Source: an uncultured virus (IMG/VR IMGVR_UViG_3300027851_000013)
Lineage: Duplodnaviria > Heunggongvirae > Uroviricota > Caudoviricetes
Virus record (IMG/VR): IMGVR_UViG_3300027851_000013
DNA: 64,000 bases
Direction: 5' to 3' (one strand)
Under the pieces are notes generated by a model that made no database searches, was not told the origin of the DNA, and saw only the letters and a list, made by a program, of their open reading frames with translations. Positions 13,625 through 60,882 of this stretch are shown here, piece by piece. A program made the position numbers and the translations under genes. The number at the start of each line of letters is the position of its first letter. The stretch's first letter is position 1.

Positions 13625-14020
13625 TCTGCTCAAGTCCATGGGACTTGAGTTAGGGAAAGAGAACAAGTTCAAGTTCAACTTGAATATGGGTACGATCGGG
13701 TGCAGGTTCGAATCCTGCCCTCCCCGCCATTTTATGGGGAGGTAGCCCAACTGGAAGAGGCTAGTACCCCTCAATCCCTTCGTTAGTCTATTCTCTAATC
13801 TTGGAGACCCGAATCGATCGCCATCTCAACCTCTCGTTTACCCTTGCCTAAGATGATGGTTCAACTCCATCCCCCTTCGCTCAGCAACCAAATTCTTTTG
13901 GTTGCTGAGCGAAGGGGTGGTCTAATGGAATGACATAGGCACTTAGATCTAAAAAACGAGATTAAATGTCGTTGGCGTGAAAAAATGAAACGGGTACCTA
14001 CTAAGTAGGACTACATCTGG
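13625..14020 (+). ncRNA. large structured RNA with two circularly permuted tRNA-like modules (13688-13769 and 13845-13941); ends approximate
   Basis: Each module runs T arm, loop-closed acceptor stem, D arm, inside a closing helix; no ORF in the region. Confidence 0.75.
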
Positions 14021-16595: not shown

Positions 16596-16794
16596 CTCGT
16601 TTTTCGTGTATGCTACAACCACCTGGTGAGTTGCTTGCTGATACATCTAGACGCTAATATTGGAGGAGGGAACTATTTTAGTTCCTTCCTCAATTGGTGC
16701 ATTGATAGCAGCAGGTAACAAGATCTTCCCCAGTCAGTTGTTACCCAGAATAGAAGGGGATTGACAACTGAATAGGATGATGAAGACAACTTTA

Positions 16795-16895
16795 GCGACG
16801 AATGCTGAAGGGTATACATTGCACCAAAAGAGCGAACGCTGGTTCGATTCCAGCGAAAAACGGGATGGTTCCCTACTCTTCCTTTCTGTCGTCGC
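16795..16895 (+). ncRNA. Y RNA-like gene A (T arm only)
   Basis: GCGACGA-ATGC...TACAT...TTCTG-TCGTCGC terminal stem; GCTGGTTCGATTCCAGC T arm. Confidence 0.75.
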
Positions 16896-16899
16896 ATTT

Positions 16900-16974
16900 T
16901 CCGGGGTGGCGCAGCGGTAGCGCGGTCGGCTGTTAACCGATTGGTCGTAGGTTCGAATCCTACCCCCGGAGCCA
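16900..16974 (+). tRNA. tRNA-Asn(GUU)
   Basis: Cloverleaf, CT-GTT-AA loop, CCA. Confidence 0.95.
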
Positions 16975-17021
16975 CGTAGCTTAGTGTTAGATTAAAGCAC
17001 TATTCAATGTAAAATAGTGCT

Positions 17022-17507
17022 ATGAATAAAAGAGAACATGCTATCTACGTTAGAGAACGACGTTCACGGCTAAAGAAAGCTATTGTAAAGCTGGCTGGAG
17101 GTCGGTGTCGTATTTGTGGCTATGACAAATGTAGTGCTGCCTTGGAGTTCCATCACCCTGGAAGCGACAAGGACTTCGGTCTGTCCTACAAGGGTTTGTT
17201 CAGAAGCTTTTCCTCGATCGCAGAAGAAGTGAGCAAGACTGTTCTATTGTGTGCTAATTGTCACCGTGAGATTCACAATATACCAGGTGTAGAGTGTCCT
17301 TCTCCTATTCTTCTTTCGGAGGACGACCTTCGGCGTAAGGTTCACTCCCTAGAAACTAGGTCACCTCGTATAGAGGGGTTCCATCATGGAACTAGTAGCG
17401 GATACAACCTACATAAATGTAGGTGCACCCTGTGTAAGTTGTATCATAAAGAGGCAGCGGCCAGGTACAGACTTAAGAAGAAAACACCTCCGGAGCCATG
17501 TAGCTGA
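17022..17507 (+). CDS. HNH homing endonuclease
   Basis: GGRCRICGY...ALEFHH...LLCANCHRE; C-terminal HGT..GY....CRC..C. Confidence 0.88.
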   Translation: MNKREHAIYVRERRSRLKKAIVKLAGGRCRICGYDKCSAALEFHHPGSDKDFGLSYKGLFRSFSSIAEEVSKTVLLCANCHREIHNIPGVECPSPILLSEDDLRRKVHSLETRSPRIEGFHHGTSSGYNLHKCRCTLCKLYHKEAAARYRLKKKTPPEPCS

Positions 17508-17511
17508 TTTT

Positions 17512-17666
17512 TAGGTGAATGCTGAACGATCTACATAAAGATCCTAAGGTAGCGATGTCCTCTCCCTGAGAGGGCTAGTGAGGGCAACCAAGGCAACAAG
17601 GTGCTCGTCTCCACTGCCTTCCTTGTGAAGGTAAGGAGGATAGATTGTTCAATTCTCTGTCACCTA
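17512..17666 (+). ncRNA. Y RNA-like gene B (non-tRNA inner domain)
   Basis: TAGGTGA-ATGC-T-GAACGATCTA-CAT...TAGATTGTTC-AATTCTCTG-TCACCTA. Confidence 0.7.
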
Positions 17667-17669
17667 TTT

Positions 17670-17746
17670 GGGGATACGGTCCAGCCTGGAGTGGACGTCG
17701 CTCTGTCACAGCGAAGACCGTGGGTTCAAATCCCACTATTCCCGCC
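17670..17746 (+). tRNA. tRNA-Asp(GUC)
   Basis: TCGCT-CTGTCAC-AGCGA anticodon arm and T arm. Confidence 0.92.
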
Positions 17747-17894
17747 GCAAAAGCACAGGCACATGTCAGTGTGCTACGCAAGAATGAGGGCAAGCGGCTG
17801 ACACCGCATATGCACGCTGGGACTGATCCTTCCAGAGGTCGGGTGCCCTGACCGATACACTAGGGTGTAAGAGTGTTTCTTGTTGTGCTTTTGC
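17747..17894 (+). ncRNA. unknown multi-hairpin RNA between tRNA-Asp and tRNA-Tyr
   Basis: 11-bp closing stem GCAAAAGCACA/TGTGCTTTTGC with several inner hairpins. Confidence 0.55.
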
Positions 17895-17901
17895 CTCTTC
17901 A

Positions 17902-25753: not shown

Positions 25754-25877
25754 GTGCCAAATGCTGTAAAGACTACAACTGTCGCGTGCTGGTTCGATTC
25801 CAGTCCACCTCGGAAACGATGTGGTAGCTCAAATGGTAGAGCAATAGTCCAAACGTCTTTATAAATCCTGTTGGCAC
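25754..25877 (+). ncRNA. Y RNA-like gene C (YrlA-type, full tRNA-like module)
   Basis: GTGCCAA/TTGGCAC and GTAAAGAC/GTCTTTAT stems; T arm GCTGGTTCGATTCCAGT, closed acceptor CCAC/GTGG, D arm GCTC/GAGC. Confidence 0.85.
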
Positions 25878-25880
25878 TTT

Positions 25881-26869: not shown

Positions 26870-26989
26870 CCCACATCTCTGGAGAGCTTCTGCTACTTGA
26901 GTCCTGAAAACCGGGCTCATAACGCCACCTTAGGTCCGTTGTAGTTACGTACTAGCAGAATCCGGGTTCAATTCCTGGGTGTGGGGCCA
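26870..26989 (+). ncRNA. tRNA/tmRNA-like small RNA ending in CCA, lacking D stem and anticodon arm
   Basis: CCCACAT/GTGTGGG acceptor plus GCCA; T arm CCGGG-TTCAATT-CCTGG; 8-bp helix TTCTGCTA/TAGCAGAA. Confidence 0.7.
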
Positions 26990-27423
26990 AAAGTTTTTAT
27001 CATGATTCGCTTGCTATCTCTACTCCTTTTGTTTTCTTGCGCTCCGGCAATACCTCCAGAGCCCACCTGTAGACCTGTACTTTGCGCTCCGGATCACTAC
27101 TTTGATTCTCACTTCTGTGCCTGTAAGATTCGACCCGATGCTTCCTCCGAGTGAACTATCAGAGAACCAACGTCTCCTCTCTGAAGAAGTAATTCGCTTG
27201 TGCGTAAAGGAACATGGATCTCACCCTGTAGTGGGTTGGGAGGTATCTCTGTGGAGAGCCTCCTTAGGTCAAATTCGAATTGAATCCCTATCCTATCCAG
27301 AGATGACTCACCTTCTATCCCTTGCCCAGAAGGCAGGAGGATGGGTCTTTTGGACTTCGGAGGGCCACACCTTTTATCCTGTAAAGGATTGGTTGAATCT
27401 TCTCAAGTCTATTGGGGTGTGAA

Positions 27424-27804: not shown

Positions 27805-28609
27805 CCCATCCTATTTAGGGTGGTATGACCCTTGTAGAAGCTCTCGTATCGCCGCCCTTGGTTTTGGTTAGTATCTACTTATCGCTAAAGATTAGCGGCC
27901 TGCGCAAGAGACTTGATTTATGACCCGAGAAGCTAAATTATGGGCAGATGAGTCAGGAACCACCTGGTGGGAAGTTACCCAAGAGGGCGCCGATCCGGTA
28001 GGCCTGCAGGGACCTGGTCCGTGCAGGGGATTGCAGTATGTTCCCAGACTGGAGTTTGACTCCAGGTTCACTCTAGTTACTGCGCCTAAGGCAGATAATA
28101 ATCCATTTTCCAAAATTATGCCTCTCTACAAACCTTCTAAGAAATTAGGTATGAGATGACAGACTATCCCTCGCTTTTGGAGCGTATCTCCTTAGATTCT
28201 CTTTGCGACAGCAGAAGACCCAAACCGGGCCGAGCGGTAGAGGTGGCCTGCGCGAACCCTGAAATAAAAGACAAGCTCTCCAGGCTAACCTCTGATGATG
28301 TTTCTCGCATACATCTAAGCAGTCTAGCTTTGACTCTCATATCTGCGCATCGCTGATGTTCTACTGCCACATGACTGTGGAATGCCACAGGTGCGCCGCA
28401 CAAGCGGATATGAAAGTTTTTGTCGGAGAGGTCAGACCACTTCAGCCTGAGGACACGAAACACCATAACTTGACTCTTCCTGCCGGATGGATGTGGAAAG
28501 AAAGATATGGATATTTCGTTGACTCAAAGTTTAGGTATACAAATACTATTCCATACTATGACGCGGTATCTATCCTGTGCCCTGAGTGTGTGGAAAAGGA
28601 CCCTCTTTG

Positions 28610-30802
28610 ATGCAGTTTGACACCTTATACCACAAGGGTTCCTCTGGTGCTCTATACTCCTGGAGAGTATGGACAGAGGGAGCTGACGTGTGCACAGAAT
28701 ATGGTCAAATAGACGGTAAAAAGCAGCTTGCTCGAAAGACAGCTGACGCCAAGAACGTGGACAAGTCCAATGCCACCACACCAGAAGAACAAGCGGTTGC
28801 TGAAGCTAAGTCCATGTGGACTCATCGAGTAGAGAGAAAGTATCGTCGTACTATTGATGAAGCCAAAAATGATGAGATATTTCTTCCCATGTTGGCTTCT
28901 GAATTCGAGAAGCGAAGAGGTCAGAAGAAGGACGGTCACACCTATCCGTGTGACGTGCAGCCTAAACTGGATGGTTGCGTCTATGGTAGCACAGTCTTGA
29001 CTACCTCAGATGGACCAAAGACAATCCAAGAAATTGTAGAAGGGAGACTTTCCCTAGAAGTTCTCTCTTACAATGAAAGCAAAGAGGTGTTTGAGTTTAA
29101 GAGAGTTGTAGGTTGGTTCAATAACGGGTATGCGGACCACACTCATTGGTTAGACGTAGTTCCTGAATTTGGTAATCACATTAAGTGCACTAGCGATCAT
29201 AAGTTTCTCACTCCATCTGGATGGAAGGAAGCCCGAGACCTAGACCCTAAATGCGATCTAATACTTTCTTTTGACGACAGTTCGTACTTCAACTCTTTGC
29301 TGGCTGGGACCCTCCTGGGTGATTCTATGCTGGTCGTGGAAAAACGTGGGTCTGGGACATCATACAGGTCAAAGTTCGCTCATACAAACAAAGAATTCTT
29401 TGAATTCAAGAAGAGCCTTTTAGGGCTCACTGGCTCGTCTGTAACGTACACTTCTGGATTTGGATCCAGAGGGAAGGCGTTCATTTCTTCCGCTCTCACT
29501 TCGTCCACATTCCCTATATCTAGGTTTTATCACACAGGTCACTCACCTAATGTTGGAAAACGTAAGGTAGTGTATCACGAAACCTTACGTGAGCTTCTTT
29601 CCCCAGAAGCCTTGGCATTGTGGATCGGTGATGATGGTTCCATACAGAATAATAATGGAGACCCAACCACGCCTCGTTTATACTTGCACACTCACTCCTC
29701 TTCAGAGGATCAGATCGAGGAATACAGGAAATACTTTAGATCAGAGTGGGATTGTACTCCTTCTGTGTACACAGACAAGGTAGTAGAGGACACCGGTAAT
29801 GTCCCTGGAAAGTTTCTTTGCTTTAGTACCAAGGACACTCTTTGGATCTTGAACAAGTTAAGAACAAAGCACTGCAAGGGTGTTGAATACAAGTTTTACT
29901 TCCCGACTGAAGGGTATGTAAGACCTGTAACAAAAGGACCTGTCTGGCAGCGATTCCATGTGAGGCACGCTAAGTTCATGCCTGTTGCTGCTAAATATGA
30001 CATCGAGGTTGAAGACAACCACACATATGTGGCGAATGGACATGTTATCCATAATTGTAGGGCTCTTGCTTACTGGGACGGAGAAGACTTGAAGCTCCTT
30101 TCCCGAGGAGGGAAGGAGTACAACTGTCCTCACATAATTTCTGTTCTGAAGAACGTCCTCCCTCCGAATCTAGTTTTAGACGGGGAGCTTTACTTGCACG
30201 GAGTCGGGTTTCAGACCATTACTTCGTGGGTGAAGAAGTTACAAGCGAACACAAGCAAGATACAATATCATGTGTACGACTGTGTGCTGCTTAATGACCG
30301 AAGCGCCAGCTGGGTTGACAGGTATCACCACCTATACGCTTTCTTTAACACATCCTCCCATAGATTAGGGGACGTTGTTCATTTGGTCGAGACTTATGAG
30401 GCTCACAACGAAGACGAAATCCTTAGGATCCACAATAAGGTAGTCTCGAAAGGGTACGAGGGAGCCATCGTCAGGATGTACGATGATAGCAAATATCAGT
30501 TTGCTTATAGGTCCAAGAGATTACTCAAGGTCAAATCCTTTAATGACTCGGAGTATGAGGTTGTAGGGTATACTACGGGCAAGGGCAAGTTTGCTGACTG
30601 TGCTGTATGGATCTGTAAAGCTGGAGATAACACCTTTCAGGTGGTATCCATGGGCTCGATGGAAGAGCGAAAAAGACTTCTGCAAGAAGCCGAATCTTAT
30701 GTGGGGTGCTTGTTGAAGGTAAAGTACTTCGATCTCACAGATGACGGAATCCCAAGATTTCCTGTTGGAATAGGCTTTAGGATGGAAGAGGATATGTCAT
30801 GA
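28610..30802 (+). CDS. lig: ATP-dependent DNA ligase, intein-containing
   Basis: PMLA, KLDG|CR, LDGELY, YHVYD, EGAIVR, RSKRLLKVK, PRFPVG. Confidence 0.92.
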   Translation: MQFDTLYHKGSSGALYSWRVWTEGADVCTEYGQIDGKKQLARKTADAKNVDKSNATTPEEQAVAEAKSMWTHRVERKYRRTIDEAKNDEIFLPMLASEFEKRRGQKKDGHTYPCDVQPKLDGCVYGSTVLTTSDGPKTIQEIVEGRLSLEVLSYNESKEVFEFKRVVGWFNNGYADHTHWLDVVPEFGNHIKCTSDHKFLTPSGWKEARDLDPKCDLILSFDDSSYFNSLLAGTLLGDSMLVVEKRGSGTSYRSKFAHTNKEFFEFKKSLLGLTGSSVTYTSGFGSRGKAFISSALTSSTFPISRFYHTGHSPNVGKRKVVYHETLRELLSPEALALWIGDDGSIQNNNGDPTTPRLYLHTHSSSEDQIEEYRKYFRSEWDCTPSVYTDKVVEDTGNVPGKFLCFSTKDTLWILNKLRTKHCKGVEYKFYFPTEGYVRPVTKGPVWQRFHVRHAKFMPVAAKYDIEVEDNHTYVANGHVIHNCRALAYWDGEDLKLLSRGGKEYNCPHIISVLKNVLPPNLVLDGELYLHGVGFQTITSWVKKLQANTSKIQYHVYDCVLLNDRSASWVDRYHHLYAFFNTSSHRLGDVVHLVETYEAHNEDEILRIHNKVVSKGYEGAIVRMYDDSKYQFAYRSKRLLKVKSFNDSEYEVVGYTTGKGKFADCAVWICKAGDNTFQVVSMGSMEERKRLLQEAESYVGCLLKVKYFDLTDDGIPRFPVGIGFRMEEDMS
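28976..30055 (+). mobile_element. intein (360 aa) with LAGLIDADG endonuclease
   Basis: Starts CVYGST, block B KCTSDHKF, LAGTLLGDS and LALWIGDDG helices, ends YDIEVEDNHTYVANGHVIHN before Cys+1. Confidence 0.93.
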
Positions 30803-31834: not shown

Positions 31835-31968
31835 GTGGCAAATGCCTGTAAGGGTGTACATCCATTCGGAGGACGAGGACCAGGTGCAACTCCTGGGGCT
31901 GCGATTTTTGACGCAGCTTAGTGTAAGAGTAGCACGCGTAAATTCACTCTTGCGATTTCTGTTGCCAC
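31835..31968 (+). ncRNA. Y RNA-like gene D (YrlA-type)
   Basis: GTGGCAA/TTGCCAC stem, ATGC, TACAT; T-like arm CCAGG/CCTGG, acceptor GGCTGCG/CGCAGCT, D arm. Confidence 0.85.
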
Positions 31969-31979
31969 ATTTTTTTTTC

Positions 31980-32103
31980 GTGCTGAATGCGAGAAAGACT
32001 ACAATCCAAACTGGGGATTCGGGTTCGACTCCCGAGGTCTCTCCGGAGATCTAGTCTAATGGAAGGACATCAGTAACTACGTCTTTTTCAATTCTGTCAG
32101 CAC
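31980..32103 (+). ncRNA. Y RNA-like gene E (YrlA-type)
   Basis: GTGCTGA/TCAGCAC stem; TCGGGTTCGACTCCCGA T arm; GGTCTC-tccg-GAGATC; GTCTAATGGAAGGAC D arm. Confidence 0.88.
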
Positions 32104-32112
32104 ATATGTTTC

Positions 32113-32805: not shown

Positions 32806-34431
32806 ATGGCTAATAAGTCTATTTTTGGTGGTGCTACGGCAGGTAAGAGGCCGAGGGCCGTTCCCCTAGATTCTAAGGGAAAGGTTACTCGAAATGAAGC
32901 GGGAGGTCTGGCTTACCCGCTCACAAATCGTGCCGCCCTTGCGCAATATGCCTGCACAGGCACCTTCAGCAACACGTACTACGCTTCTGCTTCGGACCAG
33001 TTGACGAAGACTCTGGAGCTGGCATCCAAGGTGGACAACGTCTTCCTTGCCAAGACCGCCATTTACTCCAGGAGGTCTGCCTTCATGAAAGACATGCCTG
33101 CCCTTTTGGTGGCTGTTCTTTTTGCTCGTGCCGGCAACAATGATGTGGAGGCCTCCCGCTTGTTTCGTACCGTTTTTCCGATTGTCATTGACAACGCAAA
33201 GATGCTCCGAAACTTCGTGCAGGTAGTTCGATCTGGTGTTACGGGGCGGAAGAGCCTCGGCACCATGGGCAAGAGCGTGATCAACAATTGGTTTGACCGC
33301 AGAACTGCTGACCAAATCTTTCGTGATTCCGTAGGCAACGATCCTTCTTTGGTGGATGTCATTAAGTTGGCACATCCTAAGTCTGGGTCTGATGCAGCGA
33401 AGCATGCCACCTTCAATTACCTTCTGGGTAAAGAAGGTGCAAGAATCGCTTCCACTCTTCCTGACTCTATTCGGGAGTTTGAGGCTTTCAAGGCCAATCC
33501 CAAGAAAGCATCTGTACCCAAGGTTCCCTTCCAGTTGCTTACTTCTTTGGACCTGGACACAAAGCAGTGGACCGAGATTGCATTGAACGGTGGCTGGCAC
33601 TTTGTTCGTATGAATCTAAACACTTTTGCGCGCCATGGTGTGCTAAAGAATGCGGACGTAGTGTCAAAGCTGGCGGACAAGCTTAGGGACGAGAAAGAAA
33701 TCTCTAGTTCCAGAGTATTCCCGTATCAACTTCTGATGGCGTACAAGGCTACTGAGGCGTCTTCGGATATCCCCATGCCACTGAAACTGGCGCTTCAGGA
33801 TGCTATGGAGATAGCTACCAAGAATGTTCCTCCGCTCTCTGGGAACGTATGGGTATTTCCTGACGTATCTGGCTCCATGAGCAGCCCAGTGACAGGCCAT
33901 CGTAAGGGCGCTACTACTGGTGTCCGTTGTATTGATGTTGCTGCGCTTGTTTCAGCATCAATTCTTCGTACGTCACCCACTGCCAACGTGCTTCCTTTTG
34001 ACACGCGTATGCACGCCGCTTCTCTAAACCCAAGAGATTCGGTTATGACAAATGCGAAGAAGTTGGCCTCATTTGGTGGCGGTGGTACCACTGTATCGCT
34101 CTGCTTTGAGCATCTTCAAGGCAAGAAGGCTGATGTTATCATCATTGTATCGGACAACGAATCGTGGCTAGATAGACCCGTCTCTTCTTGGGGTAGGGCT
34201 TCCACCGCCTCTGAGGCTGGCTGGCAGCGCATCAAGGCGAAGAACCCTGACTGCAAGCTGGTTTGCATCGACATTCAGCCGTATGCCACGACTCAAGTCG
34301 CCGATGAGCGGAACTCCGTTCTCAACATTGGCGGTTTTTCTGACAGCGTGTTTGAGGTAGTCTCTGCTTTCGCCCAGGGGTCAGACTCCAGCTTTTGGGT
34401 TGAGAGAATAGAGTCCATGCAAGTGGACTGA
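32806..34431 (+). CDS. rsr: Ro60/TROVE RNA-binding protein (Rsr)
   Basis: NEAGG, MKDMPALL, MLRNFVQ, IKLAHPK, MNLNTF.RHG, VFPYQL; C-terminal vWA DVSGSM, GGGGT, SDNESW. Confidence 0.95.
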   Translation: MANKSIFGGATAGKRPRAVPLDSKGKVTRNEAGGLAYPLTNRAALAQYACTGTFSNTYYASASDQLTKTLELASKVDNVFLAKTAIYSRRSAFMKDMPALLVAVLFARAGNNDVEASRLFRTVFPIVIDNAKMLRNFVQVVRSGVTGRKSLGTMGKSVINNWFDRRTADQIFRDSVGNDPSLVDVIKLAHPKSGSDAAKHATFNYLLGKEGARIASTLPDSIREFEAFKANPKKASVPKVPFQLLTSLDLDTKQWTEIALNGGWHFVRMNLNTFARHGVLKNADVVSKLADKLRDEKEISSSRVFPYQLLMAYKATEASSDIPMPLKLALQDAMEIATKNVPPLSGNVWVFPDVSGSMSSPVTGHRKGATTGVRCIDVAALVSASILRTSPTANVLPFDTRMHAASLNPRDSVMTNAKKLASFGGGGTTVSLCFEHLQGKKADVIIIVSDNESWLDRPVSSWGRASTASEAGWQRIKAKNPDCKLVCIDIQPYATTQVADERNSVLNIGGFSDSVFEVVSAFAQGSDSSFWVERIESMQVD

Positions 34432-52669: not shown

Positions 52670-53485
52670 GTGAGAAAAACTCCAATGCCTATGAAGATTG
52701 AACTTCTGATAATAGACCCGCAGAAGGACTTCTGTGACCCCAACGGAAGTCTGTTTGTGCCAGGAGCGCAGGAAGACGTTAAGAGGTTGGCCTCTTTGGT
52801 TTCCCGTCTAAAGGGAAAGCTCAACGACATTCATGTCACTTTAGATTCTCACCGAAAGGTGGACATCAGTCATCCTATCTGGTGGAAGAATTCGAGCGGG
52901 TCTCACCCGTCTCCGTTCACTATGATTACGGCGGCGGACGTTGAGAGCGGCACGTGGACCACATCTCAGCCTAGCGCCTACAAGCGTTCCTTGGCCTATC
53001 TGCGTGCCCTGGAAGCCAGCGGTAGGTATCCTCACGTTATTTGGCCTTACCACTGCCTCATCGGTGACGAGGGTCATTCTGTGGCATCCGAACTTTCGGC
53101 GGCTATTCATGAGTGGGAAGATCGTTACGCCATGTGTGACTTCGTCACCAAGGGAAGTAACCCCTGGACCGAGCACTTCAGCGCTGTGATGGCTGAGGTT
53201 CCTGACCCTGAGGACGAGAGCACTCAGGTCAACGCACGTTTCATCGAAACGTTGGAGTCGGCAGACGTCATTTTGGTTGCGGGCGAAGCCCTTTCGCACT
53301 GTCTTGCCAATACCGTGAGAGACATCGTCACTCACTTTTCGGATCCCAAGTACGTAGAGAAGATTCACCTCCTCACGGATGCGTCGTCGAACGTTCCTAC
53401 GTTCGAGAAGTATGGCGAAGACTTCGTTCGTGACATGGTTGCTAAGGGAATGAAGGTCACCACGACCACAGATTTCTTGGCCTGA
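52670..53485 (+). CDS. pncA: nicotinamidase / isochorismatase-family hydrolase
   Basis: IIDPQKDFC...G.L.V.GA, DSH, WPYHC, KG, GEALSHCL. Confidence 0.8.
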   Translation: MRKTPMPMKIELLIIDPQKDFCDPNGSLFVPGAQEDVKRLASLVSRLKGKLNDIHVTLDSHRKVDISHPIWWKNSSGSHPSPFTMITAADVESGTWTTSQPSAYKRSLAYLRALEASGRYPHVIWPYHCLIGDEGHSVASELSAAIHEWEDRYAMCDFVTKGSNPWTEHFSAVMAEVPDPEDESTQVNARFIETLESADVILVAGEALSHCLANTVRDIVTHFSDPKYVEKIHLLTDASSNVPTFEKYGEDFVRDMVAKGMKVTTTTDFLA

Positions 53486-53500
53486 CGGTTAGGTTGACCC

Positions 53501-54058
53501 ATGAGACCCATTGTTCAAGATAGCTACTTGTCTCGCGATATCTTTCCTATCTTGGAGCAGGAGGTTCCATGGGTAAACAGGTCGTCTCCTAGAGACGAAT
53601 GTTTTATGGCACTCGAATCTGCTCCTCAGGTGTACAGTTATGGGAACTCCAACGAGCACCGAAAGGCTCTACACACCTACACGGCAGTTCCCATGCATGA
53701 AGAGGTTCGTAGGATAGCCGAAAACCTCAATAAAGATTTCGAGTGCTCGTACAACGTTTGCGTGTTGAACTACTACAAGGATCAGCACCAGCATCTAGGA
53801 TGGCACGCTGACGACTCTCCGGAACAGGACCTAGACCACCCGATTGCAGTGATTGCTTTCGGGGCGTCTAGGTACTTTTGGTGGAAACCTCGTACACAAA
53901 AAGGTGAGATACCGGAAGACCAGAAGATTCTTATGAAACCTGGAGACTTGGTAATTATGCCTGGAGGATTTCAGGCTGACCACCTCCACCGCATTCCTAA
54001 GCATTCTGAATCTTGTGGCGGAAGAATTTCTCTTACTTTTCGTAAGTTAGTACGATGA
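53501..54058 (+). CDS. AlkB-family 2OG-Fe(II) dioxygenase
   Basis: LNYY....HLGWHADD...H.IPK...RISLTFR. Confidence 0.9.
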   Translation: MRPIVQDSYLSRDIFPILEQEVPWVNRSSPRDECFMALESAPQVYSYGNSNEHRKALHTYTAVPMHEEVRRIAENLNKDFECSYNVCVLNYYKDQHQHLGWHADDSPEQDLDHPIAVIAFGASRYFWWKPRTQKGEIPEDQKILMKPGDLVIMPGGFQADHLHRIPKHSESCGGRISLTFRKLVR

Positions 54059-54636
54059 CAAAATCCATCCCCTATCACGAAGATACGGCATACTCCAGGG
54101 CCGTCACCGCAGCGAACCTAGCGGGGTACAAGGAACTCCCCTATAGGTCTTCTGACGGATATACTGCTGTACTGGACGCATTCAAGAAAGAGGCACTTGA
54201 TTTCGTTCCTTGCCCAGACGGAAAAGACCCCTACGAAGAGGGGTGGGGACATCTTAAGGGCCTCATAGATAGGATTTTCCCACTTCAGCTCGTCGGGGAC
54301 TGTCTTCGGACCATGAGTAGGTCAGCACACCCTTTTCACGAATCTTATCTGTGGGGTGCTTCTGAAGAAGACGAAGGAGACGAAGTTCCGAACCTGGTTC
54401 CGTTGGTAAGGTTTCGTACTCTTCATCACTACGGACATTATGCTTTGTTTAAGCCTAGTGTAGCTGAGGTTCTTGCACAGATACCCTTCGAGTATGTGAC
54501 CAAGACCGACTTCTTCTACTTAGAAGGTCCTGATACTGCAGACGATCTGAACAAAGAATTGTTGGCATTGGATGCAGGATTTCATGTGGCTATGTGTACT
54601 CTTTACTCTGAACCTTCAAAGTGCAGGAATTCCTGA
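54055..54636 (+). CDS. hypothetical protein
   Basis: H.YG...LFKPSVAEVLAQIP motif. Confidence 0.6.
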   Translation: MTKSIPYHEDTAYSRAVTAANLAGYKELPYRSSDGYTAVLDAFKKEALDFVPCPDGKDPYEEGWGHLKGLIDRIFPLQLVGDCLRTMSRSAHPFHESYLWGASEEDEGDEVPNLVPLVRFRTLHHYGHYALFKPSVAEVLAQIPFEYVTKTDFFYLEGPDTADDLNKELLALDAGFHVAMCTLYSEPSKCRNS

Positions 54637-54827
54637 TCAATGACTACTAAAGAGGACACTATCGAAGAGATATCAGACATGTTGGATAGCCTATCAACAG
54701 CCGAATCGTTGAGGATCTTCCGTAAGCTGAATACAGGAGATCTGCTTACTCTAAGCATTGCTATCCGCAAGTACGGCGATGAGAGAGAACAGACTACTAA
54801 GGAACTCCTGCAGGGGGATCACGAGCT

Positions 54828-55184
54828 ATGAGCTACGACATTGAATTAGTAGATCCTGTAAGCAGGTCTGTTTTGAAGTTGGAGCACGCCCACCATATGC
54901 ACGGGGGAACCTATGCTATGGGAGGGACTAACGAACTTCACTTGAATATAACCTACAACTATTCCAAGCATTTCTATCGTGTGATGGGAGAACTTGGAAT
55001 TCGGTCTCTCTACGGACTGTCTGGGGCGGACAGCATTCCGCTACTGGAACAAGCAATTGCTAACCTGAAGGACGAGGTCTCAGAAGACTACTGGGAGCCT
55101 ACAGAAGGGAACGCGAAGAGATCTTTGATTCAACTTCTCACTATGGCTAAGCTGAGACCTGACGGAGTCTGGAGAGGAGACTGA
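54828..55184 (+). CDS. conserved phage hypothetical protein
   Basis: MSYDI...GGTY..GG....LNITYNY...RPDGVW.GD. Confidence 0.65.
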   Translation: MSYDIELVDPVSRSVLKLEHAHHMHGGTYAMGGTNELHLNITYNYSKHFYRVMGELGIRSLYGLSGADSIPLLEQAIANLKDEVSEDYWEPTEGNAKRSLIQLLTMAKLRPDGVWRGD

Positions 55185-55185
55185 C

Positions 55186-55821
55186 ATGATCCGTAAAATT
55201 ACTCCTCCCGCTTCATCTTACGAAGAAGCACCAGTTTTCCCTACGTGCTCCCAAGTACGAGGAAGATTGGTGACTAGAGTATTTGACTTGGATGAGGACG
55301 TTGGGACGGATTGCGAAGCATGGATCCCCGACGGGGACTTCCTGTTCAATTTTGAGATAAAGAATGTTAGAATCGAGCATTCTAAACTGCTGATTTTAGA
55401 CCCTGTAGACAATCGTCTTTCCTCCTGTTCCATGTGGGATCCTGTGTTTGGAGGAGCTTTTGGCGCTCCCGCCCTAGGAATCAAGGTTCCCTCTGGAATC
55501 CTGCATTGGGTCTTCTTTGAGGATACCTCAGTTCAAGGAACAGGTCAGGGTCTTACTGCCAACATTGAAAATGTTCAAGTTGACAACCAGACGTTGGTCC
55601 TTCCCTCTGCCTACATGGACAGGCTAGATGAGCTTAAGTACTCCAAGCGTCCTTTTTCTGTATCTTTCTTGGAAGAGCATCTCATTGATTTCATAGACAG
55701 GGAAGTAGGATATTCCGAACTACGGAATAAGTTCGTGATCAACCTAAACTTTCATCGAGTTACTGTGCAACTGTTTGAAGGAGACCACAGGGAAGTAGGT
55801 CCCTGGCAGTCGTGGAAGTGA
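55186..55821 (+). CDS. hypothetical protein
   Basis: Packed ORF. Confidence 0.5.
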   Translation: MIRKITPPASSYEEAPVFPTCSQVRGRLVTRVFDLDEDVGTDCEAWIPDGDFLFNFEIKNVRIEHSKLLILDPVDNRLSSCSMWDPVFGGAFGAPALGIKVPSGILHWVFFEDTSVQGTGQGLTANIENVQVDNQTLVLPSAYMDRLDELKYSKRPFSVSFLEEHLIDFIDREVGYSELRNKFVINLNFHRVTVQLFEGDHREVGPWQSWK

Positions 55822-55828
55822 GAAGAAA

Positions 55829-56413
55829 ATGGAAGACAACAAGTCAGAGAAGTTCAGCGTAGATATCTCCTTGAACCGAGAGGAGATCCTGGACCAAGTA
55901 GTATGTGTTTTGGTCAGGTCCCTTGCGGAAGGTAAGGTAGAACGAAGTAGTGGATACTACGATCCTGACGGAGACTGGGTTGATACCGACATCAAGGTAT
56001 CTCCTGGAGGTACGTTTGAGCAGACCCTGCGAAACCGCGTGTCCACTATGTTGGACAAAAGGCTGGCGGAGGTTTTGAACGAGAGCCTCAAGTCTCAGTT
56101 ACGTGATATGGTAAAGTCTCGTCTGGAAGAGATTGCTGAGAAGGGTTTGCCCGAGTTCGACCGATACGGAGAGATGCGCTTCACGCCTTGGTCTAAGGCG
56201 GTTGCTGTTGCGCTGGAGGGTCTCACTAAGAAGTCTTCCTCCTACGATGACCCGAAAATCTCTACAATAGCTAAGGATGCCTTCAGGGAAAAGATCACTA
56301 AGGTACTGGAAGAAGAGAGTACAAAAATCAAAGCTACTATTCGAGCCGCTGTAGATGAACAGCTTTCTGGTACTGTGATCAAAACGTTGCGCGACGCCAT
56401 TGGCCTTCGCTGA
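55829..56413 (+). CDS. hypothetical helical protein
   Basis: Packed ORF. Confidence 0.55.
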   Translation: MEDNKSEKFSVDISLNREEILDQVVCVLVRSLAEGKVERSSGYYDPDGDWVDTDIKVSPGGTFEQTLRNRVSTMLDKRLAEVLNESLKSQLRDMVKSRLEEIAEKGLPEFDRYGEMRFTPWSKAVAVALEGLTKKSSSYDDPKISTIAKDAFREKITKVLEEESTKIKATIRAAVDEQLSGTVIKTLRDAIGLR

Positions 56414-56434
56414 AAAGTGTAAAGGAGTCTTACC

Positions 56435-57184
56435 ATGCCCATTCTTTCTGACAACGACGATAGTCTTGAGAATCATTCGATCAAGGGTTCCACCTACGGA
56501 TTCTCTGCGAAGAGAATCGACGACCTTGGCGCTGCCGAGTACACACTGGTAGGTATCGCCGTGGACTCGTCCTCCTCGGTGGTCGACTTCGAATCAGAGA
56601 TCAACAAGTGCATCCAAGAGATTGTAAAGGCTTGTCGCCTGTCGCCTCGTGCCGACAATCTTATGTTGCGTCTGGTCGAGTTCAATTCGAATCTATCGGA
56701 GATTCACGGGTTCAAGCCTCTTACAGAGTGCAATGTGGATGACTACACAGGTGCTGTTCGTCCTTCGGGTATGACCGCTCTCTACGATGCTTCGTGCAAC
56801 TTGGCTCAGTCCATCACTCAGTACGGAAAAGATCTGTCCGAGAACGACTTCTCTGTAAACGGGATTCTGTTCGTCATCACAGATGGAATGGACAACAGGT
56901 CCACTTTCACCCCTTCCTCGGTTGCCTCTGCAATTAAGGACGCTGTTCGAGCAGAAGCTTTGGAGTCCATGGTGACCGTTCTTATTGGCGTCAACATTCA
57001 GGACAAGAGCGTCAGTCAGTACCTCCAGTCTTTCAACAAGGACGCTGGATTCACTCAGTACGTGGAGTTGGACAAGGCAGACGCTAAGAGCCTGGCCAAG
57101 CTCGCGGCTTTCGTCTCGAAGAGCGTCTCGGCGCAAAGTCAGGCGCTAGGTACGGGCGGTCCGTCTCAATCACTCTCTTTCTGA
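56435..57184 (+). CDS. vWA-domain protein (TerY-like)
   Basis: DSSSSV, GMTALYDA, ITDGMDN. Confidence 0.85.
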   Translation: MPILSDNDDSLENHSIKGSTYGFSAKRIDDLGAAEYTLVGIAVDSSSSVVDFESEINKCIQEIVKACRLSPRADNLMLRLVEFNSNLSEIHGFKPLTECNVDDYTGAVRPSGMTALYDASCNLAQSITQYGKDLSENDFSVNGILFVITDGMDNRSTFTPSSVASAIKDAVRAEALESMVTVLIGVNIQDKSVSQYLQSFNKDAGFTQYVELDKADAKSLAKLAAFVSKSVSAQSQALGTGGPSQSLSF

Positions 57185-57208
57185 AGCCCTCAGCCCCAAT
57201 AATAATCT

Positions 57209-57814
57209 GTGGAGTACAGTATGAATTCAGACCATGCACCGGATGAAATAGGCTACAGAGCGTCGGACTACAACTCCTTCTGTCTCTCTGTGGGGTATGC
57301 AGAGTCTACCTTCTTAAGCTCCCTCACGTTTGTGTATCAAGGTGAGACTACAGAACTTCGACCCACCAAAGTAGAGGCGTGGAACGAGGCTTTTGATTCG
57401 CTTGCATCAGTACTTTTGGAATTCTCCGAAAGGAGGTTTGGAGGCAAGCACTCCTGTTGTGTAAGAATGCCTCCAGAGGCTATGTTCTGCTCCTCTTGCG
57501 GCGCGAACCTCTCATTCAGAAACGAATCTGAAGACGACTATAGGCACTTTGTGGTGCGTAATGCTTTGGGTTGGCTGTGGACGGCAGAGAACCACGAAAC
57601 ACCTGAAGAGATCGATTTTGACCAGGTGTGGTCTTCTGTGTATAACGAAGACGTGGTTATTCTGCGCTCATTCGTTCAGTATCGAGCTGAAGAATTCGTG
57701 GCCTGGTTTACCCACCATCGTAAGCATCTCAATAGATATTGGAACTCAAAGGTAGGGTTCTGGGATAACGTTTTCGTTGAACAGGTTTCTCCTTTTTCTA
57801 TGGTTGGAGGCTGA
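57209..57814 (+). CDS. hypothetical protein with zinc ribbon
   Basis: CC......FCSSCG. Confidence 0.5.
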   Translation: MEYSMNSDHAPDEIGYRASDYNSFCLSVGYAESTFLSSLTFVYQGETTELRPTKVEAWNEAFDSLASVLLEFSERRFGGKHSCCVRMPPEAMFCSSCGANLSFRNESEDDYRHFVVRNALGWLWTAENHETPEEIDFDQVWSSVYNEDVVILRSFVQYRAEEFVAWFTHHRKHLNRYWNSKVGFWDNVFVEQVSPFSMVGG

Positions 57815-58235
57815 ATGTCGGAAGATAGATTTTGGGTTGCTTTTCCTACAGATTTGTTTGAGGAGCAGGCTCCTGGGAGTGATGCTTCAGGTCACCCCAT
57901 CGTTCGTGTGACGGATGAGTTTATTGGACCATTTCAAGACGCTAATGAAGTCATTGCGGCTGTAGAGAGTCTTCCTTATGGTGACATGGCGGTGGTCGCT
58001 CAATGTGACGCTAGTGAGGGCATTTTGCCCTTCCTCGTTCTTACCGCAGCCTTTTCTGCCGTGAAAGCTGAGCCTGCCACCCTTCAGATTCGTGTACTTC
58101 ACCACTTTATCGTGACAGGTAAAGAATTCCCTACTGCAGAGGACACAGGTTACGCAACTAAGACAGTGGCGGAAGAGAAGAAATCTAACACTCGTCGCTC
58201 CTTGAGCCGCACAAAGAAGTGAGAGACTCGTACCA

Positions 58236-58721
58236 GTGGCTGCACGTGATAAGCGCCCCTCTGTGTGGACCTCCGCACGTATCCTCCGTGCTCTGTTGCG
58301 TACGGAGGATCTGTTCTCAACAGGGCGGGAACTTACACCAGTTCGTCACAACGAGCACCACACTGTAAACAGTGATGAAGACCTGGTCAGCCACTTGAGA
58401 TGGATGGTGTTGGCCCTACCTTCTCTAGTAGAGGAGGGTCATAAGGATAAGGCACTTCGTTGGCTGGGCTTCGTACAAGGAGCCCTGTGGGCTAAGGGTC
58501 TGGCCACCATATCAGATCTAAAGAGTTGCAACAGGGAAGAAGTACCTGTTGACCTAGAAGTAAACGACTTGGTCATTCTTGCTACGGAGCCTTCTCGCTC
58601 CTTTAGAGTGGCTAAGATATCCCACGGGTATGACCCTGGAACAGGACTTGCTCTTTTGCTTACTGAAGCAGAAGGCCACCGTCATGGGTGGGAAGACATA
58701 CAGCTTCTTCGTAAAAAGTGA
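58236..58721 (+). CDS. hypothetical protein
   Basis: KA.RWLGFVQG.LW motif. Confidence 0.55.
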   Translation: MAARDKRPSVWTSARILRALLRTEDLFSTGRELTPVRHNEHHTVNSDEDLVSHLRWMVLALPSLVEEGHKDKALRWLGFVQGALWAKGLATISDLKSCNREEVPVDLEVNDLVILATEPSRSFRVAKISHGYDPGTGLALLLTEAEGHRHGWEDIQLLRKK

Positions 58722-58749
58722 ACAACCTAAGAGAGAAACAGAAGAGAAC

Positions 58750-59388
58750 ATGACCAGCATTCAGACAGATAACAACAGCATCAAGACTCGCTACATTCGT
58801 AGTCGCAAGAACCCCGATCAAGTCATGACCCTTGTGACCAAAATCGACGGGGATACTCTTACTTTTGCCGTTGCAATCAATTCCCCGCCTCGTAAGCACG
58901 CCCTTGATCGCACAGGTCAGGTGGTGTGGGGCAGGACAGGGGACACTTTCTCTCGCAAGACAGGGTCTTCCATTGCTCTCGGACGTCTAGGCTGTGAGCG
59001 ATCTCGTCGTGTCGTGAAGTTCAATCAAGACGAACAGCACCCTCTCCAGGTGGCACTCAGTACCCTGTCCTCTCCAGAGGAGCAGAAGAAGAACCCCCTG
59101 GCTGCTCGCATCGCTTCGGCCCACATGGCAGACTTGGTCTCTTCGCTTCTTCGCAGCAAAAAGACTCCGAACAAGCCTAATGGCAATTACGAGCATGATC
59201 ATGCTCTTGTCATTCTTAAGCTGAAGGAGGCAAAGAAGGCAGCCAAGAAGGCCACTCCTGAGAAGACCCCTTCTAAGAAGGTTGCCTCTAAGAAGACTGC
59301 TCCTAAGAAGGTCACCAAGGTGAATTCCGAGGAGAAGCGGAAGCTGAACCATGCCCTAACCAAGGCACTCTCCAAGAAGTCCAAGTGA
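58750..59388 (+). CDS. basic protein with histone H1-like Lys/Ala/Pro tail
   Basis: D.FSRK.G..IA..R core; KKAAKKATPEKTPSKKVASKKTAPKK. Confidence 0.65.
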   Translation: MTSIQTDNNSIKTRYIRSRKNPDQVMTLVTKIDGDTLTFAVAINSPPRKHALDRTGQVVWGRTGDTFSRKTGSSIALGRLGCERSRRVVKFNQDEQHPLQVALSTLSSPEEQKKNPLAARIASAHMADLVSSLLRSKKTPNKPNGNYEHDHALVILKLKEAKKAAKKATPEKTPSKKVASKKTAPKKVTKVNSEEKRKLNHALTKALSKKSK

Positions 59389-59403
59389 CATTTTGAGTCT
59401 TAG

Positions 59404-59436
59404 GGAAAGGGGTGCTTCGGTGCCCCTTTTCTTTTT
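59404..59436 (+). terminator. intrinsic terminator
   Basis: AAAGGGGTGC-TTCG-GTGCCCCTTT followed by a T run. Confidence 0.7.
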
Positions 59437-59455
59437 CCTTCCTGTTGAGGTCCTT

Positions 59456-60298
59456 ATGCACAGCGATAGTTTTTTCACCATCGGGTCTACTCATAGAGTA
59501 TGTCAAGATTATGCCATGTCGGGCAGGACTCGATGGGGTAAGTCTTTTGCTATTTTGTCGGACGGATGCTCAGGAAGCCCCAATACCGACTTTGGTTCTA
59601 GATTTCTGACTAGAGCTGCGTATTGGGCACTCAATCAGTTCAACAACTCCTTTCCTTCTGGCAGTCTTCACATAACGGCCTCGGCCTTTGCCAGCCAGAT
59701 GGCCTCCTCTTGTAACATCGAGTTTGAATGTCTGGATGCTACCCTGCTCATGGCAGTGGAAGGAACGAGCGGAGAAAAGGAGGGCGTGTGGGCGTTGGTG
59801 TTTGGGGATGGCGTGGTGGCAGCACGTCATAGGCACAGCCACAAAATCACTCTGTACGCCATTGAATTTCCCCACGGCTACCCTGCCTATGTAAGCTACC
59901 TGTTGGACTTGGAGAGGCTTAAGGGATATGTCAAGCATACACAGGGCCAACCTGCGCTTCTTCACCATTATCGAGAAGGACTGGCAGAGGCCCCCTCTCC
60001 TCTCCCCTTCTTTGATCTTTCTTCGAAGGAGTGGTCCATTCCCTTTACCTGTTTCTTTCCGTCAGACGAGTACGACGTAATGGCACTTTTCTCTGACGGC
60101 ATTGAGTCTTTCAACTGTGCAGAAAAAGACGCGCAAACAGAACTTGGCCTGGCCGATTTAGTAGGTGAGTTTCTGTCCTTTAAGGGTCATGCAGGAGAGT
60201 TTGTAGTGCGCCGAGCCAAAAAGGCGATCTCCAAGCTGAAAGAACTAGGATATTCTCACACTGACGACTTTTCCATGGCTGCTATTCACATGGGGTGA
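59456..60298 (+). CDS. PP2C-like protein phosphatase
   Basis: G..H..CQD, SDGCS, DATL, GDG, SDG, TDDFS. Confidence 0.85.
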   Translation: MHSDSFFTIGSTHRVCQDYAMSGRTRWGKSFAILSDGCSGSPNTDFGSRFLTRAAYWALNQFNNSFPSGSLHITASAFASQMASSCNIEFECLDATLLMAVEGTSGEKEGVWALVFGDGVVAARHRHSHKITLYAIEFPHGYPAYVSYLLDLERLKGYVKHTQGQPALLHHYREGLAEAPSPLPFFDLSSKEWSIPFTCFFPSDEYDVMALFSDGIESFNCAEKDAQTELGLADLVGEFLSFKGHAGEFVVRRAKKAISKLKELGYSHTDDFSMAAIHMG

Positions 60299-60861
60299 GG
60301 ATGCTCTTCGTCATCGATATGCAGGATGAGTTTCTTCGTGAAGTTTCTTGCCTTGAATCGAAGTGGTCTTTTGTAGGGTCTGTCGCCTCTGTGGTGCGAA
60401 AAGCCAACGACAGGGACATTCCTGTAGTATTTGTGGAATATGTAGGCTACGGTAAGACTATTTCCGCTCTACAGGACGCTGCCAGAGGTCAGTTCACTGT
60501 GGTCAAAAAGAAAGACGACGATGGGTCTGACGAGATTCTTTCCTACTTGGAAGAAGAAGAGGGCATAGATCTGGACTCGCCCTCAAGTTACCCTAATCTC
60601 ACCTTTTGCGGAATCAATAGCGACGCCTGTGTTCTCCTTACGGTAGGAGGAGTTCTTCGACAAGGGTTCAACTGTCGCATTGTGCAGAAGGCTACAGCCA
60701 ACGCATGGGGGAAGATTTCCACCATTAACGATTCTGGCCTTGTTCGTATATGGAGAGACGCCTTCCGGCCCTTGGATCCTCACACAATGGTTAGACCGCC
60801 ACCTGCTGAGGGGTGGAAGCAGCCTATGAACAGAAGGCTACGTCTTATCAAACGCTTCTGA
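60295..60861 (+). CDS. isochorismatase-family cysteine hydrolase
   Basis: VIDMQ..F, KK.DDGS, CGINSDACV. Confidence 0.8.
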   Translation: MRMLFVIDMQDEFLREVSCLESKWSFVGSVASVVRKANDRDIPVVFVEYVGYGKTISALQDAARGQFTVVKKKDDDGSDEILSYLEEEEGIDLDSPSSYPNLTFCGINSDACVLLTVGGVLRQGFNCRIVQKATANAWGKISTINDSGLVRIWRDAFRPLDPHTMVRPPPAEGWKQPMNRRLRLIKRF

Positions 60862-60864
60862 GCC

Positions 60865-60882
60865 GAACCCTGGACATAATAA
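60865..60882 (+). promoter_or_regulatory. putative phage promoter motif (copy 7)
   Basis: GAACCCTGGACATAATAA. Confidence 0.55.

What the first reader, a model, noticed from the sequence alone, without database searches (positions are those of the whole stretch)
17512..17666. Y-like RNA B has a non-tRNA inner domain of about 110 nt
Seen: the same terminal stem and TACAT as its siblings, but the interior has no T loop. It forms other helices: TCCT/AGGA, TGTCCTC/GAGGGCA with an inner CCCT/AGGG hairpin, and TGCCTTC/GAAGGTA. Inference: domain swap giving a new effector module, possibly an aptamer or protein-binding site.
Basis: partly seen in the sequence, partly recalled or inferred. Interest (0 to 1): 0.72.

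Follow-up and report, generated by a model that had tools for sequence, protein, structure and literature searches.

The report
Phage Y RNA mimicking ribosomal junction
This small phage RNA has the stem typical of RNAs that partner the Ro60 protein, but instead of the usual tRNA look-alike it carries a shrunken, rearranged copy of the part of the large ribosomal RNA that joins the two ribosomal subunits, which suggests that phages imitate the ribosome with RNA.

Summary
17512-17666 is a Y-type RNA in a phage tRNA cluster; the genome encodes Ro60 and YrlA-like siblings. Its inner domain lacks a T arm and is a miniature, circularly permuted copy of the 23S rRNA domain IV junction (helices 67-71). 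17542-17555 equals E. coli 23S 1923-1936. I found 22 relatives in phages, metagenomes and Polyangia-class genomes; three carry 29 identical bases (1908-1936). The rRNA-register pairs covary: H69 base 51 of 51 pairs, H68 base 43 of 45, and 27 of 28 in four relatives found later. The inner domain shows no listed substitution in three related contigs whose flanks differ. Against: in B the rRNA-like fold lies 10 kcal/mol above the predicted minimum; expression and Ro60 binding are untested. Best reading: a Ro60-held decoy or tether presenting the 50S subunit-joining surface (about 0.5). The same phage and its closest Ro60 relative also encode a tRNA-shaped RNA antisense to 23S helix 69. Not found in Rfam or nine literature searches; earlier notes of this scan describe the family elsewhere.

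The parts
17512..17666 (+). Whole RNA B: Y-type stems enclosing a 23S domain IV mimic
   Evidence: fold; family; ends inferred from the stem and the tRNA-Asp 3 nt downstream
17512..17533 (+). 5' strand of the two Y-type stems, with the putative Ro60-contact word GGUGAAUG at 17514-17521; pairs with 17641/17642-17666
   Evidence: GAATGC invariant in 17 of 17 aligned members (AATGC was in the search patterns)
17535..17555 (+). Copy of 23S 1916-1936 (3' strand of H69, the 1925-1929 loop, 5' strand of H70); 17542-17555 identical to 1923-1936
   Evidence: 14-nt exact match, 18 of 20 over 1916-1935
17557..17575 (+). H71-like hairpin (8 bp); the 9-nt bulge 1936-1944 of the rRNA is cut to 2 nt
17576..17581 (+). 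UAGUGA, trimmed 3' strand of H70, pairing back on 17550-17554
   Evidence: rRNA pair numbers for H70 are recalled except G1935-C1962
17582..17606 (+). Helix in the place of H67, capped by a variable hairpin
17609..17638 (+). H68-like helix: 3-bp base (1835-37/1903-05), 2-nt bulge, UGCC/GGUA stem
17639..17641 (+). Equivalent of 23S 1906-1908; closes the H69 base with 17541-17543 (point of circular permutation)
   Evidence: 51 of 51 standard pairs over three positions in 17 members
16900..16974 (+). tRNA-Asn(GUU); lies directly before the element in two related contigs
   Evidence: loose ends
17022..17507 (+). HNH-like ORF (by eye; no Pfam hit), absent from the related contigs in runs X3 and X5
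17670..17746 (+). tRNA-Asp(GUC), 3 nt downstream; its 5' processing would release the 3' end of B (inference)
25754..25880 (+). Sibling Y RNA with tRNA-like domain (YrlA-like, 51.2 bits, below the 69-bit cut-off)
31835..31968 (+). Sibling Y RNA with T-arm-like hairpin
31980..32106 (+). Sibling Y RNA with tRNA-like domain (YrlA-like, 44.3 bits)
32806..34431 (+). Ro60 (TROVE + vWA_Ro60)
   Evidence: PF25045 E 7.8e-13, PF05731 E 3.4e-06, both over cut-off
26870..26990 (+). tRNA-shaped RNA whose long arm holds a 27-nt stretch (26923-26949) antisense to 23S 1909-1935; possible companion of B
   Evidence: orthologue in G001

Best explanation
B is a phage Y RNA with two modules. The paired ends bind the phage Ro60 ring (inferred from motif, stem and gene company). 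The interior folds as a self-contained four-way junction that imitates 23S rRNA H67/H68/H69/H70 plus H71 (shown by sequence and covariation). The rRNA order is permuted: the circle is opened in H69 and the Y stem is attached there. This junction is the face of the 50S subunit that forms bridges to the 30S subunit. Most likely the Ro60-RNA particle presents this surface off the ribosome, as a tether or decoy for whatever recognises it: the 30S subunit, a splitting, recycling or modifying factor, or a host nuclease aimed at domain IV. It would thereby keep host ribosomes usable during infection (inferred, untested). It is probably cut from the tRNA-cluster transcript (inferred).
For: Exact match to 23S 1923-1936; 2 of 2000 shuffles reach 14 nt against all three rRNAs. 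Bases upstream of the search word, which were not in the patterns, match 1907-1924 at 17 of 18 in L252, L261 and L266. H69-base pairs: 51 of 51 over three positions; the 4-bp test gives 59 of 68 against 9-36 for slid registers. H68 base: 43 of 45 against 8-33. On a MAFFT alignment of 9 members the rRNA-like structure is 98.3% paired with 13 pairs changed on both sides, and slid controls reach at most 46%. RNAalifold finds the H70, H71, H67 and H68-base helices unaided. Four relatives found later by covariance model keep 27 of 28 predicted pairs; L288 is 10 of 11 and 11 of 11 identical to E. coli 1834-44 and 1896-1906, placed downstream of its 1909-1935 copy. Helix bounds agree with the Rfam LSU consensus. 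No listed substitution falls in 17498-17650 in contigs of runs X3, X5 and X8, against 25 and 28 differences over 17486-17900 in X3 and X5. Ro60 or TROVE was found in 8 of 13 records tested. H68, H69 and H71 form bridges B2a/d, B2b, B7a and B3 (PMC11831132, passages). Y RNAs act as tethers (PMC4201824; PMC12135203).
Against: RNAalifold prefers pairing 1921-1926 with the Y inner stem instead of the H69 base; that rival helix has no pair changed on both sides, but within A2 neither does the H69 base, so that support comes from the wider set. Anchors were set by eye; 2 of 19 members were left out of the H69 count and 4 of 19 out of the H68 count for lack of an anchor. The part after the motif gives no consistent plain-sequence hit to domain IV: 3 of 19 best hits fall in 1871-1920, none clearly above shuffles, and B's own lands elsewhere. 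Seven 13-15-nt matches to rRNA occur across the window, so B's 14-mer alone proves little. B has lost the H69 loop sequence (20 of 26 identical to 1911-1936). Ro60 is 15 kb away, and none was found in G006, G009, G011, G058 or G067, all incomplete. No partner is identified.
Confidence: 0.5

Rival explanations
1. Repair patch: the mimic replaces or splints a damaged or unfolded H68-H71 region of host 50S subunits, while the tRNA-shaped antisense RNA opens the host's H69.
For: The mimic deletes the single-stranded 1937-1943 bulge, which holds the UUCCU site cut by MazF-mt3/mt6 (PMC5408214, passages). G000 and G001 both carry the antisense RNA, which pairs with 23S 1909-1935 much better (-42.0, -35.4 kcal/mol) than with their own mimics (-24.7, -20.5). 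The window encodes an RNA ligase and an RlaP-family protein. H68-71 can be left disordered after splitting (PMC11831132, passages).
Against: The junction is closed on its own strands, with covariation, so its rRNA-like strands are not free. The antisense word was not found outside the mimic itself in G007-G011, two of them at least 90% complete. L243 and L209 also pair weakly with the guides (-23.0, -20.7) although their records show no antisense RNA, so weak pairing is not specific. No precedent was found.
Confidence: 0.17
2. Captured stable fold: a piece of rRNA was taken in as a compact nuclease-resistant cap, and the RNA only gates or stabilises Ro60 without an rRNA-specific partner.
For: Chen et al. 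propose protection from nucleases as one role of the tRNA-like module (PMC4201824, discussion read). Member lengths vary from about 155 to 385 nt and B has eroded part of the rRNA likeness.
Against: The unpaired core word at 1925-1936 stays rRNA-like across phages and bacteria while stems covary (partly imposed by the search patterns, but also seen in the model-found L285-L288). The inner domain varies less than the neighbouring tRNA in related contigs.
Confidence: 0.15
3. Anti-association factor: the RNA occupies the 30S interface to block subunit joining and so shifts translation away from host mRNAs.
For: The copied helices are exactly the bridge-forming ones (PMC11831132, passages).
Against: The phage carries 20 tRNAs in this window, which fits sustaining translation. 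The module also lies beside Ro60 genes in bacterial genome bins. B lacks the H69 loop.
Confidence: 0.1
4. One reading: an unrelated aptamer or protein-binding domain, with the rRNA likeness a coincidence.
For: B's 14-mer is of a length that occurs by chance in a 64-kb window; the energy model favours another fold.
Against: 29-nt exact matches in three relatives, rRNA-register covariation and sequence identity to both H68 strands in L288.
Confidence: 0.05

Closest known systems
YrlA (Rfam RF02553; Chen et al. 2014, PMC4201824, parts 1-3 of 5 read)
   Same: Two-module plan: terminal stem with a GNCGAA-like word, a second stem, an effector domain; several Y RNAs in one genome with Ro60; the module is a circularly permuted mimic of a translation RNA.
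   Different: The module imitates 23S domain IV, not tRNA; no D or T arm; no RF02553 match on B; Ro60 15 kb away rather than within 4 kb.
YrlB of Salmonella and Yrn2 of Deinococcus radiodurans (PMC4201824)
   Same: Second Y RNAs beside a tRNA-like one; Yrn2 is co-transcribed with tRNA-Asp, and B lies 3 nt before tRNA-Asp.
   Different: [quoted passage not shown]
Yrl1/Yrl2 of Thermus phage phiLo (PMC12135203, passages)
   Same: Phage-encoded Y-like RNAs with phage Ro60, shown there to bind Ro60 and host PNPase.
   Different: No rRNA-like domain in the passages seen.
Bacterial 23S rRNA domain IV, E. coli 1830-1975 (Rfam RF02541 consensus)
   Same: Helix order round the junction, bulge positions, core sequence 1917-1936, H68 and H71 stems in the best-kept relatives.
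   Different: Permuted, opened in H69, helices shortened and capped, bulge 1937-1943 removed, free-standing in tRNA clusters.
rRNA mimicry in ribosomal-protein mRNA leaders (recalled; only a reference title seen in PMC8058203)
   Same: An RNA copies an rRNA site in structure.
   Different: Those are cis-acting leaders binding r-proteins; B is a separate RNA on a Ro60-type stem and copies an RNA-rich subunit interface.

Membership tests
Bacterial/phage Y RNA | Long stem from paired 5' and 3' ends with a bulge | tested here: met
   both stems covary in relatives (helices 1 and 2)
Bacterial/phage Y RNA | 5' motif GNCGAAN0-1G | tested here: inconclusive
   B reads GGUGAAUG, U for C at position 3, as in the YrlA-like sibling at 31984; many relatives have CGAAUG
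Bacterial/phage Y RNA | Ro60 encoded in the same genome on the same strand | tested here: met
   Ro60/TROVE found in 8 of 13 records tested, the five misses incomplete
Bacterial/phage Y RNA | Within about 4 kb of Ro60 (typical of YrlA, not absolute) | tested here: not met
   15 kb in this genome; about 1-3 kb in G010, G012, G042, G070; 6-28 kb in G007, G008, G001 (from coordinates)
Bacterial/phage Y RNA | Expressed and bound by Ro60 | not testable with these tools
   no binding assay; only contigs could be laid
YrlA (RF02553) | tRNA-like domain with D and T arms | tested here: not met
   no tRNA or YrlA match on 17512-17666
23S rRNA gene or fragment | Collinear rRNA sequence in an rRNA context | tested here: not met
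   no LSU match in the window or in 12 member loci; order permuted; flanked by tRNAs
Mimic of 23S domain IV junction (works like) | Base pairs in rRNA register with covariation | tested here: met
Mimic of 23S domain IV junction (works like) | rRNA-like three-dimensional fold and partner binding | not testable with these tools
   energy model disfavours the fold in B by about 10 kcal/mol; no structure or binding data

The most novel reading that the evidence does not exclude
These phages run an RNA-based system for re-engineering the 50S subunit interface. A tRNA-shaped antisense RNA pairs with and opens host 23S helices 69-70, and a Ro60-held, pre-folded miniature of H67-H71, which lacks the toxin-cut loop and pairs poorly with the phage's own antisense RNA, stands in for or protects that region, so that damaged or split ribosomes keep translating.
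Probability: 0.12. Interest if true: 0.97.

Novelty: new variant of a known kind. Interest (0 to 1): 0.8.

Why it matters
In the papers I could read, bacterial Y RNAs imitate tRNA or are simple hairpins. A family that imitates the subunit-joining core of 23S rRNA would tie Ro60 directly to ribosome assembly, splitting or repair, and would name a testable partner class for Y RNA effector domains, which PMC4201824 leaves open. It is also a natural minimal, covarying model of the H67-H71 junction. The antisense companion shows that two of these phages address the same rRNA site by two different RNA routes.

Tried and rejected
BLAST of B against E. coli genomes and cultured phages: nothing useful; L261 against phages hit only the 29-nt rRNA word, in rRNA-bearing or unannotated records, so no cultured phage with the RNA was found. 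First idea that 17619-17636 copies 23S 1939-1955: the pattern gave one unrelated locus, and the region maps to H68 instead. DNA search of B in five Ro60-bearing phage records gave only chance words, though G001 holds a true relative found by fold. Dropped as chance: 55 of 62 loci, 6 of 17, 5 of 6; among these L259 and L272 (same stretch, 27 bits, no H71 hairpin) are doubtful. L258 was dropped as a duplicate of L256. Promoter scan: no plus-strand site, one in all against 1.6 expected. Expression: no RNA holder listed. Searches for more antisense RNAs: 0 loci; 12 loci, none tRNA-shaped. The window Ro60 as query missed TROVE genes that the Pfam model then found in G042 and G070. Sim and Wolin 2018 was not held. 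PMC13284704 (RelS, cuts 16S) and PMC13189344 (Ribocin, eukaryotic H69) were seen in passages and do not explain B. Ribozyme, riboswitch and tmRNA identities had no Rfam support.

Full report
Setting. The window is part of a 133-kb linear virus record, G000, estimated 34% complete. It holds 20 tRNA genes on the plus strand, a Ro60 gene at 32806-34431, an RNA ligase and an RlaP-family gene, and three YrlA-like matches below the Rfam cut-off at 13677, 25754 and 31980. A stem scan of the whole record found four Y-type stems: B and three with T-arm hairpins. B lies 3 nt before tRNA-Asp. In contigs of runs X3 and X5 the T arm of tRNA-Asn runs straight into 17486, so the ORF at 17022-17507 is an optional insertion.

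Observation. The terminal stems are real (z -2.92, 2 of 200 shuffles) and no tRNA or Rfam family matches the interior. The interior alone is not unusually stable (z -0.84). It is, however, conserved: in contigs from runs X3, X5 and X8 no substitution is listed between 17498 and 17650, while X3 and X5 differ at 25 and 28 places over 17486-17900, including the tRNA-Asp. X3 and X5 share many variants, so they are not independent, and a few differences near contig ends are not listed.

What the interior is. I recalled a likeness to 23S rRNA and tested it with the E. coli rrnH operon. 17542-17555 equals 23S 1923-1936, and 18 of 20 bases match 1916-1935; 2 of 2000 shuffles reach 14 nt. Alone this is weak, since the window has seven 13-15-nt matches to rRNA. 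Relatives decide it. G001, whose Ro60 is 75% identical, has a B orthologue among many tRNA-like Y RNAs. Pattern scans gave 7 members among 62 viral loci, 11 among 17 metagenome loci (one a duplicate) and 1 among 6 genome loci (a Labilithrix bin), chosen by rRNA likeness and a closing Y stem: 18 distinct relatives. The stretch between TACA and CTAAG was free in the patterns, yet matches 1907-1924 at 17 of 18 in L252, L261 and L266, which carry 29 identical bases. No Rfam family, rRNA included, matches the element in 12 member loci, all of which carry tRNA matches.

Architecture. The Rfam consensus on the E. coli sequence gives the helix bounds: 1830-33/1972-75, 1835-37/1903-05, a 2-nt bulge, 1840-46 with an AA bulge opposite, 1906-1924, 1925-1929, G1935-C1962, a 9-nt bulge and 1945-1961. 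The names H67-H71 for these, and the H70 pairs 1931-1969, 1933-1967 and 1934-1964, are recalled. Read 5' to 3', the members run: Y stem, 1911/1917-1936, an H71-like hairpin, UAGYGA, a capped helix at the place of H67, an H68-like helix, then 1906-1909, which closes H69 with 1921-1924, then the Y stem. The junction is thus permuted and opened in H69. With anchors set by eye on conserved words, the first three H69 pairs are standard in 51 of 51 cells (17 of 19 members; G-C/A-U; G-U/A-U/G-C/C-G; C-G/U-A/U-G), the 4-bp test gives 59 of 68 against 9-36 when slid, the H68 base 43 of 45 (15 of 19 members) against 8-33, the 1933 pair is G-C or G-U in 19 of 19 (its partner word was the anchor), and the H71-like stem has 4-8 bp in 16 of 19. 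On the MAFFT alignment of nine members, 98.3% of 286 cells pair and 13 of 32 pairs change on both sides; slid controls reach at most 46%. RNAalifold finds H70, H71, H67 and the H68 base unaided, but pairs 1921-1926 with the Y stem; that rival helix is 92.5% paired with no double change. A model of the 5' core built from 17 members recovered the two held-out members and found four new ones among 121 genomes of the class of G012 (5 hits with G012). These keep 27 of 28 predicted pairs, and L288 matches E. coli 1834-44 at 10 of 11 and 1896-1906 at 11 of 11, downstream of its 1909-1935 copy. In B the H68 base reads C-G, U-A, C-G and the H69 base G-C, A-U, U-A, several of them double changes from E. 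coli. Two results go the other way. Forced into this fold B scores -45.3 against -55.0; the energy model gives no credit to non-standard or tertiary pairs (own knowledge). And plain alignment of the 3' halves does not find domain IV reliably (3 of 19).

Ro60 company. Ro60 or TROVE was found in G000, G001, G007, G008, G010, G012, G042 and G070, and not in G006, G009, G011 (13-31% complete), G058 or G067: 8 of 13. The ten distinct metagenome loci could not be tested at genome level. L285 (G058) lacks a clear Y word by eye, so the module may also occur on other stems.

A companion. The model also hit 26880-26970 on the minus strand: 24 of 27 bases match the 23S 1909-1935 region; shuffled genomes reach 18-21 (0 of 30). 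The plus strand folds (z -2.30) and the minus strand does not (z 0.15). The plus-strand RNA has an acceptor-like stem, a long arm, a T-arm-like hairpin and CCA, so the rRNA word is antisense. G001 has an orthologue with the same ends. The guides pair best at 23S 1908-1935 (-42.0 and -35.4 kcal/mol; next site -24.3 and -25.9) and weakly with their own mimics (-24.7, -20.5). It was not found in G007-G011 or by two viral scans, so it is not an obligate partner.

Mechanism. Shown: the two-module build, the rRNA-derived junction, its conservation, the Ro60 and tRNA context. Inferred: expression, processing from the tRNA transcript, Ro60 binding and function. Y RNAs tether Ro60 to partners and gate its cavity (PMC4201824, parts 1-3 of 5 read, no supplements); a phage Ro60 and its Yrls bind host PNPase (PMC12135203, passages). 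H68, H69 and H71 form the bridges B2a/d, B2b, B7a and B3 and can be left disordered by HflX (PMC11831132, passages). MazF-mt3 and mt6 cut UUCCU in helix/loop 70 (PMC5408214, passages), the stretch that the mimic omits, which argues against a decoy for those enzymes in particular. Jumbo phages carry tRNAs, RNA ligases and sometimes TROVE against attacks on translation (PMC7824862, passages). I put 0.5 on a Ro60-held tether or decoy presenting the 50S interface, 0.17 on a repair patch, 0.15 on a captured stable cap, 0.10 on anti-association and 0.05 on an unrelated aptamer.

Novelty. Rfam 15 has no match. Nine literature searches (listings only, plus the passages named) showed no Y RNA that imitates rRNA. 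PMC8058203, PMC12282133, PMC13284704 and PMC13189344 were seen in passages and add nothing on this. Sim and Wolin 2018 was not held; Sim et al. 2020 and the supplements of Chen et al. 2014 were not seen and may bear on the claim. After reaching this reading I found five earlier notes of this scan on the same family in other genomes and two on phage RNAs antisense to H69. They agree, but are unchecked AI notes and not evidence. B is a compact, eroded phage member. I file it as a new variant of a known kind (Y RNA), not as YrlA and not as an rRNA fragment. Interest 0.8.

Noticed in passing
window 26870-26990 (+); L302 = G001 104538-104592 (-): tRNA-shaped RNA (acceptor-like stem, T arm, CCA in G000) whose long arm is antisense to 23S 1909-1935; orthologue in G001; not called by ARAGORN or Rfam.
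   Followed up: partly
window 17749-17893 (+): Another structured RNA between tRNA-Asp and tRNA-Tyr (z -2.14). Variants include double changes that keep pairs (17762/17771 in X5; 17856/17869 in X3 and X5). No Rfam match.
   Followed up: partly
window 16696-16826 (+): Strongly folding non-coding element before tRNA-Asn (z -4.73, 0 of 200 shuffles); no Rfam match; identity unknown.
   Followed up: no
window 17022-17507 (+): HNH-like ORF inserted between tRNA-Asn and B, absent in two related contigs; the end of the tRNA (about 16968-16983) is repeated almost exactly at about 17490-17505.
   Followed up: partly
window 13677-13787 (+): YrlA-like tRNA domain (28.9 bits) without the Y-type terminal stem in my scan.
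   Followed up: no
L149-L151 (G001, about 97-121 kb): Eight distinct Y RNAs with T-arm domains in one phage, beside one rRNA-mimic member.
   Followed up: partly
L002 9716-9811 (+): Y-type RNA just before the Ro60 gene of G002 with a strongly diverged version of the mimic core (22.6 bits).
   Followed up: no
L285 (G058): Complete domain IV mimic without an obvious Y motif, no tRNAs near, no TROVE found in the bin.
   Followed up: partly
L255, L264: Long members (about 350-385 nt) with large insertions, in loci without tRNA calls.
   Followed up: no
window 28586-30802 (+): ATP-dependent DNA ligase with a LAGLIDADG intein.
   Followed up: no
window 52670-63118 (+): Cluster with a PP2C-like phosphatase and a kinase and, by eye, vWA-like and nicotinamidase-like genes; NAPRTase at 39865.
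   Followed up: no
L304-L313, L315: Eleven viral loci share a conserved intergenic-looking stretch that begins with the same 17-nt word as the antisense guide but has no tRNA shape.
   Followed up: no
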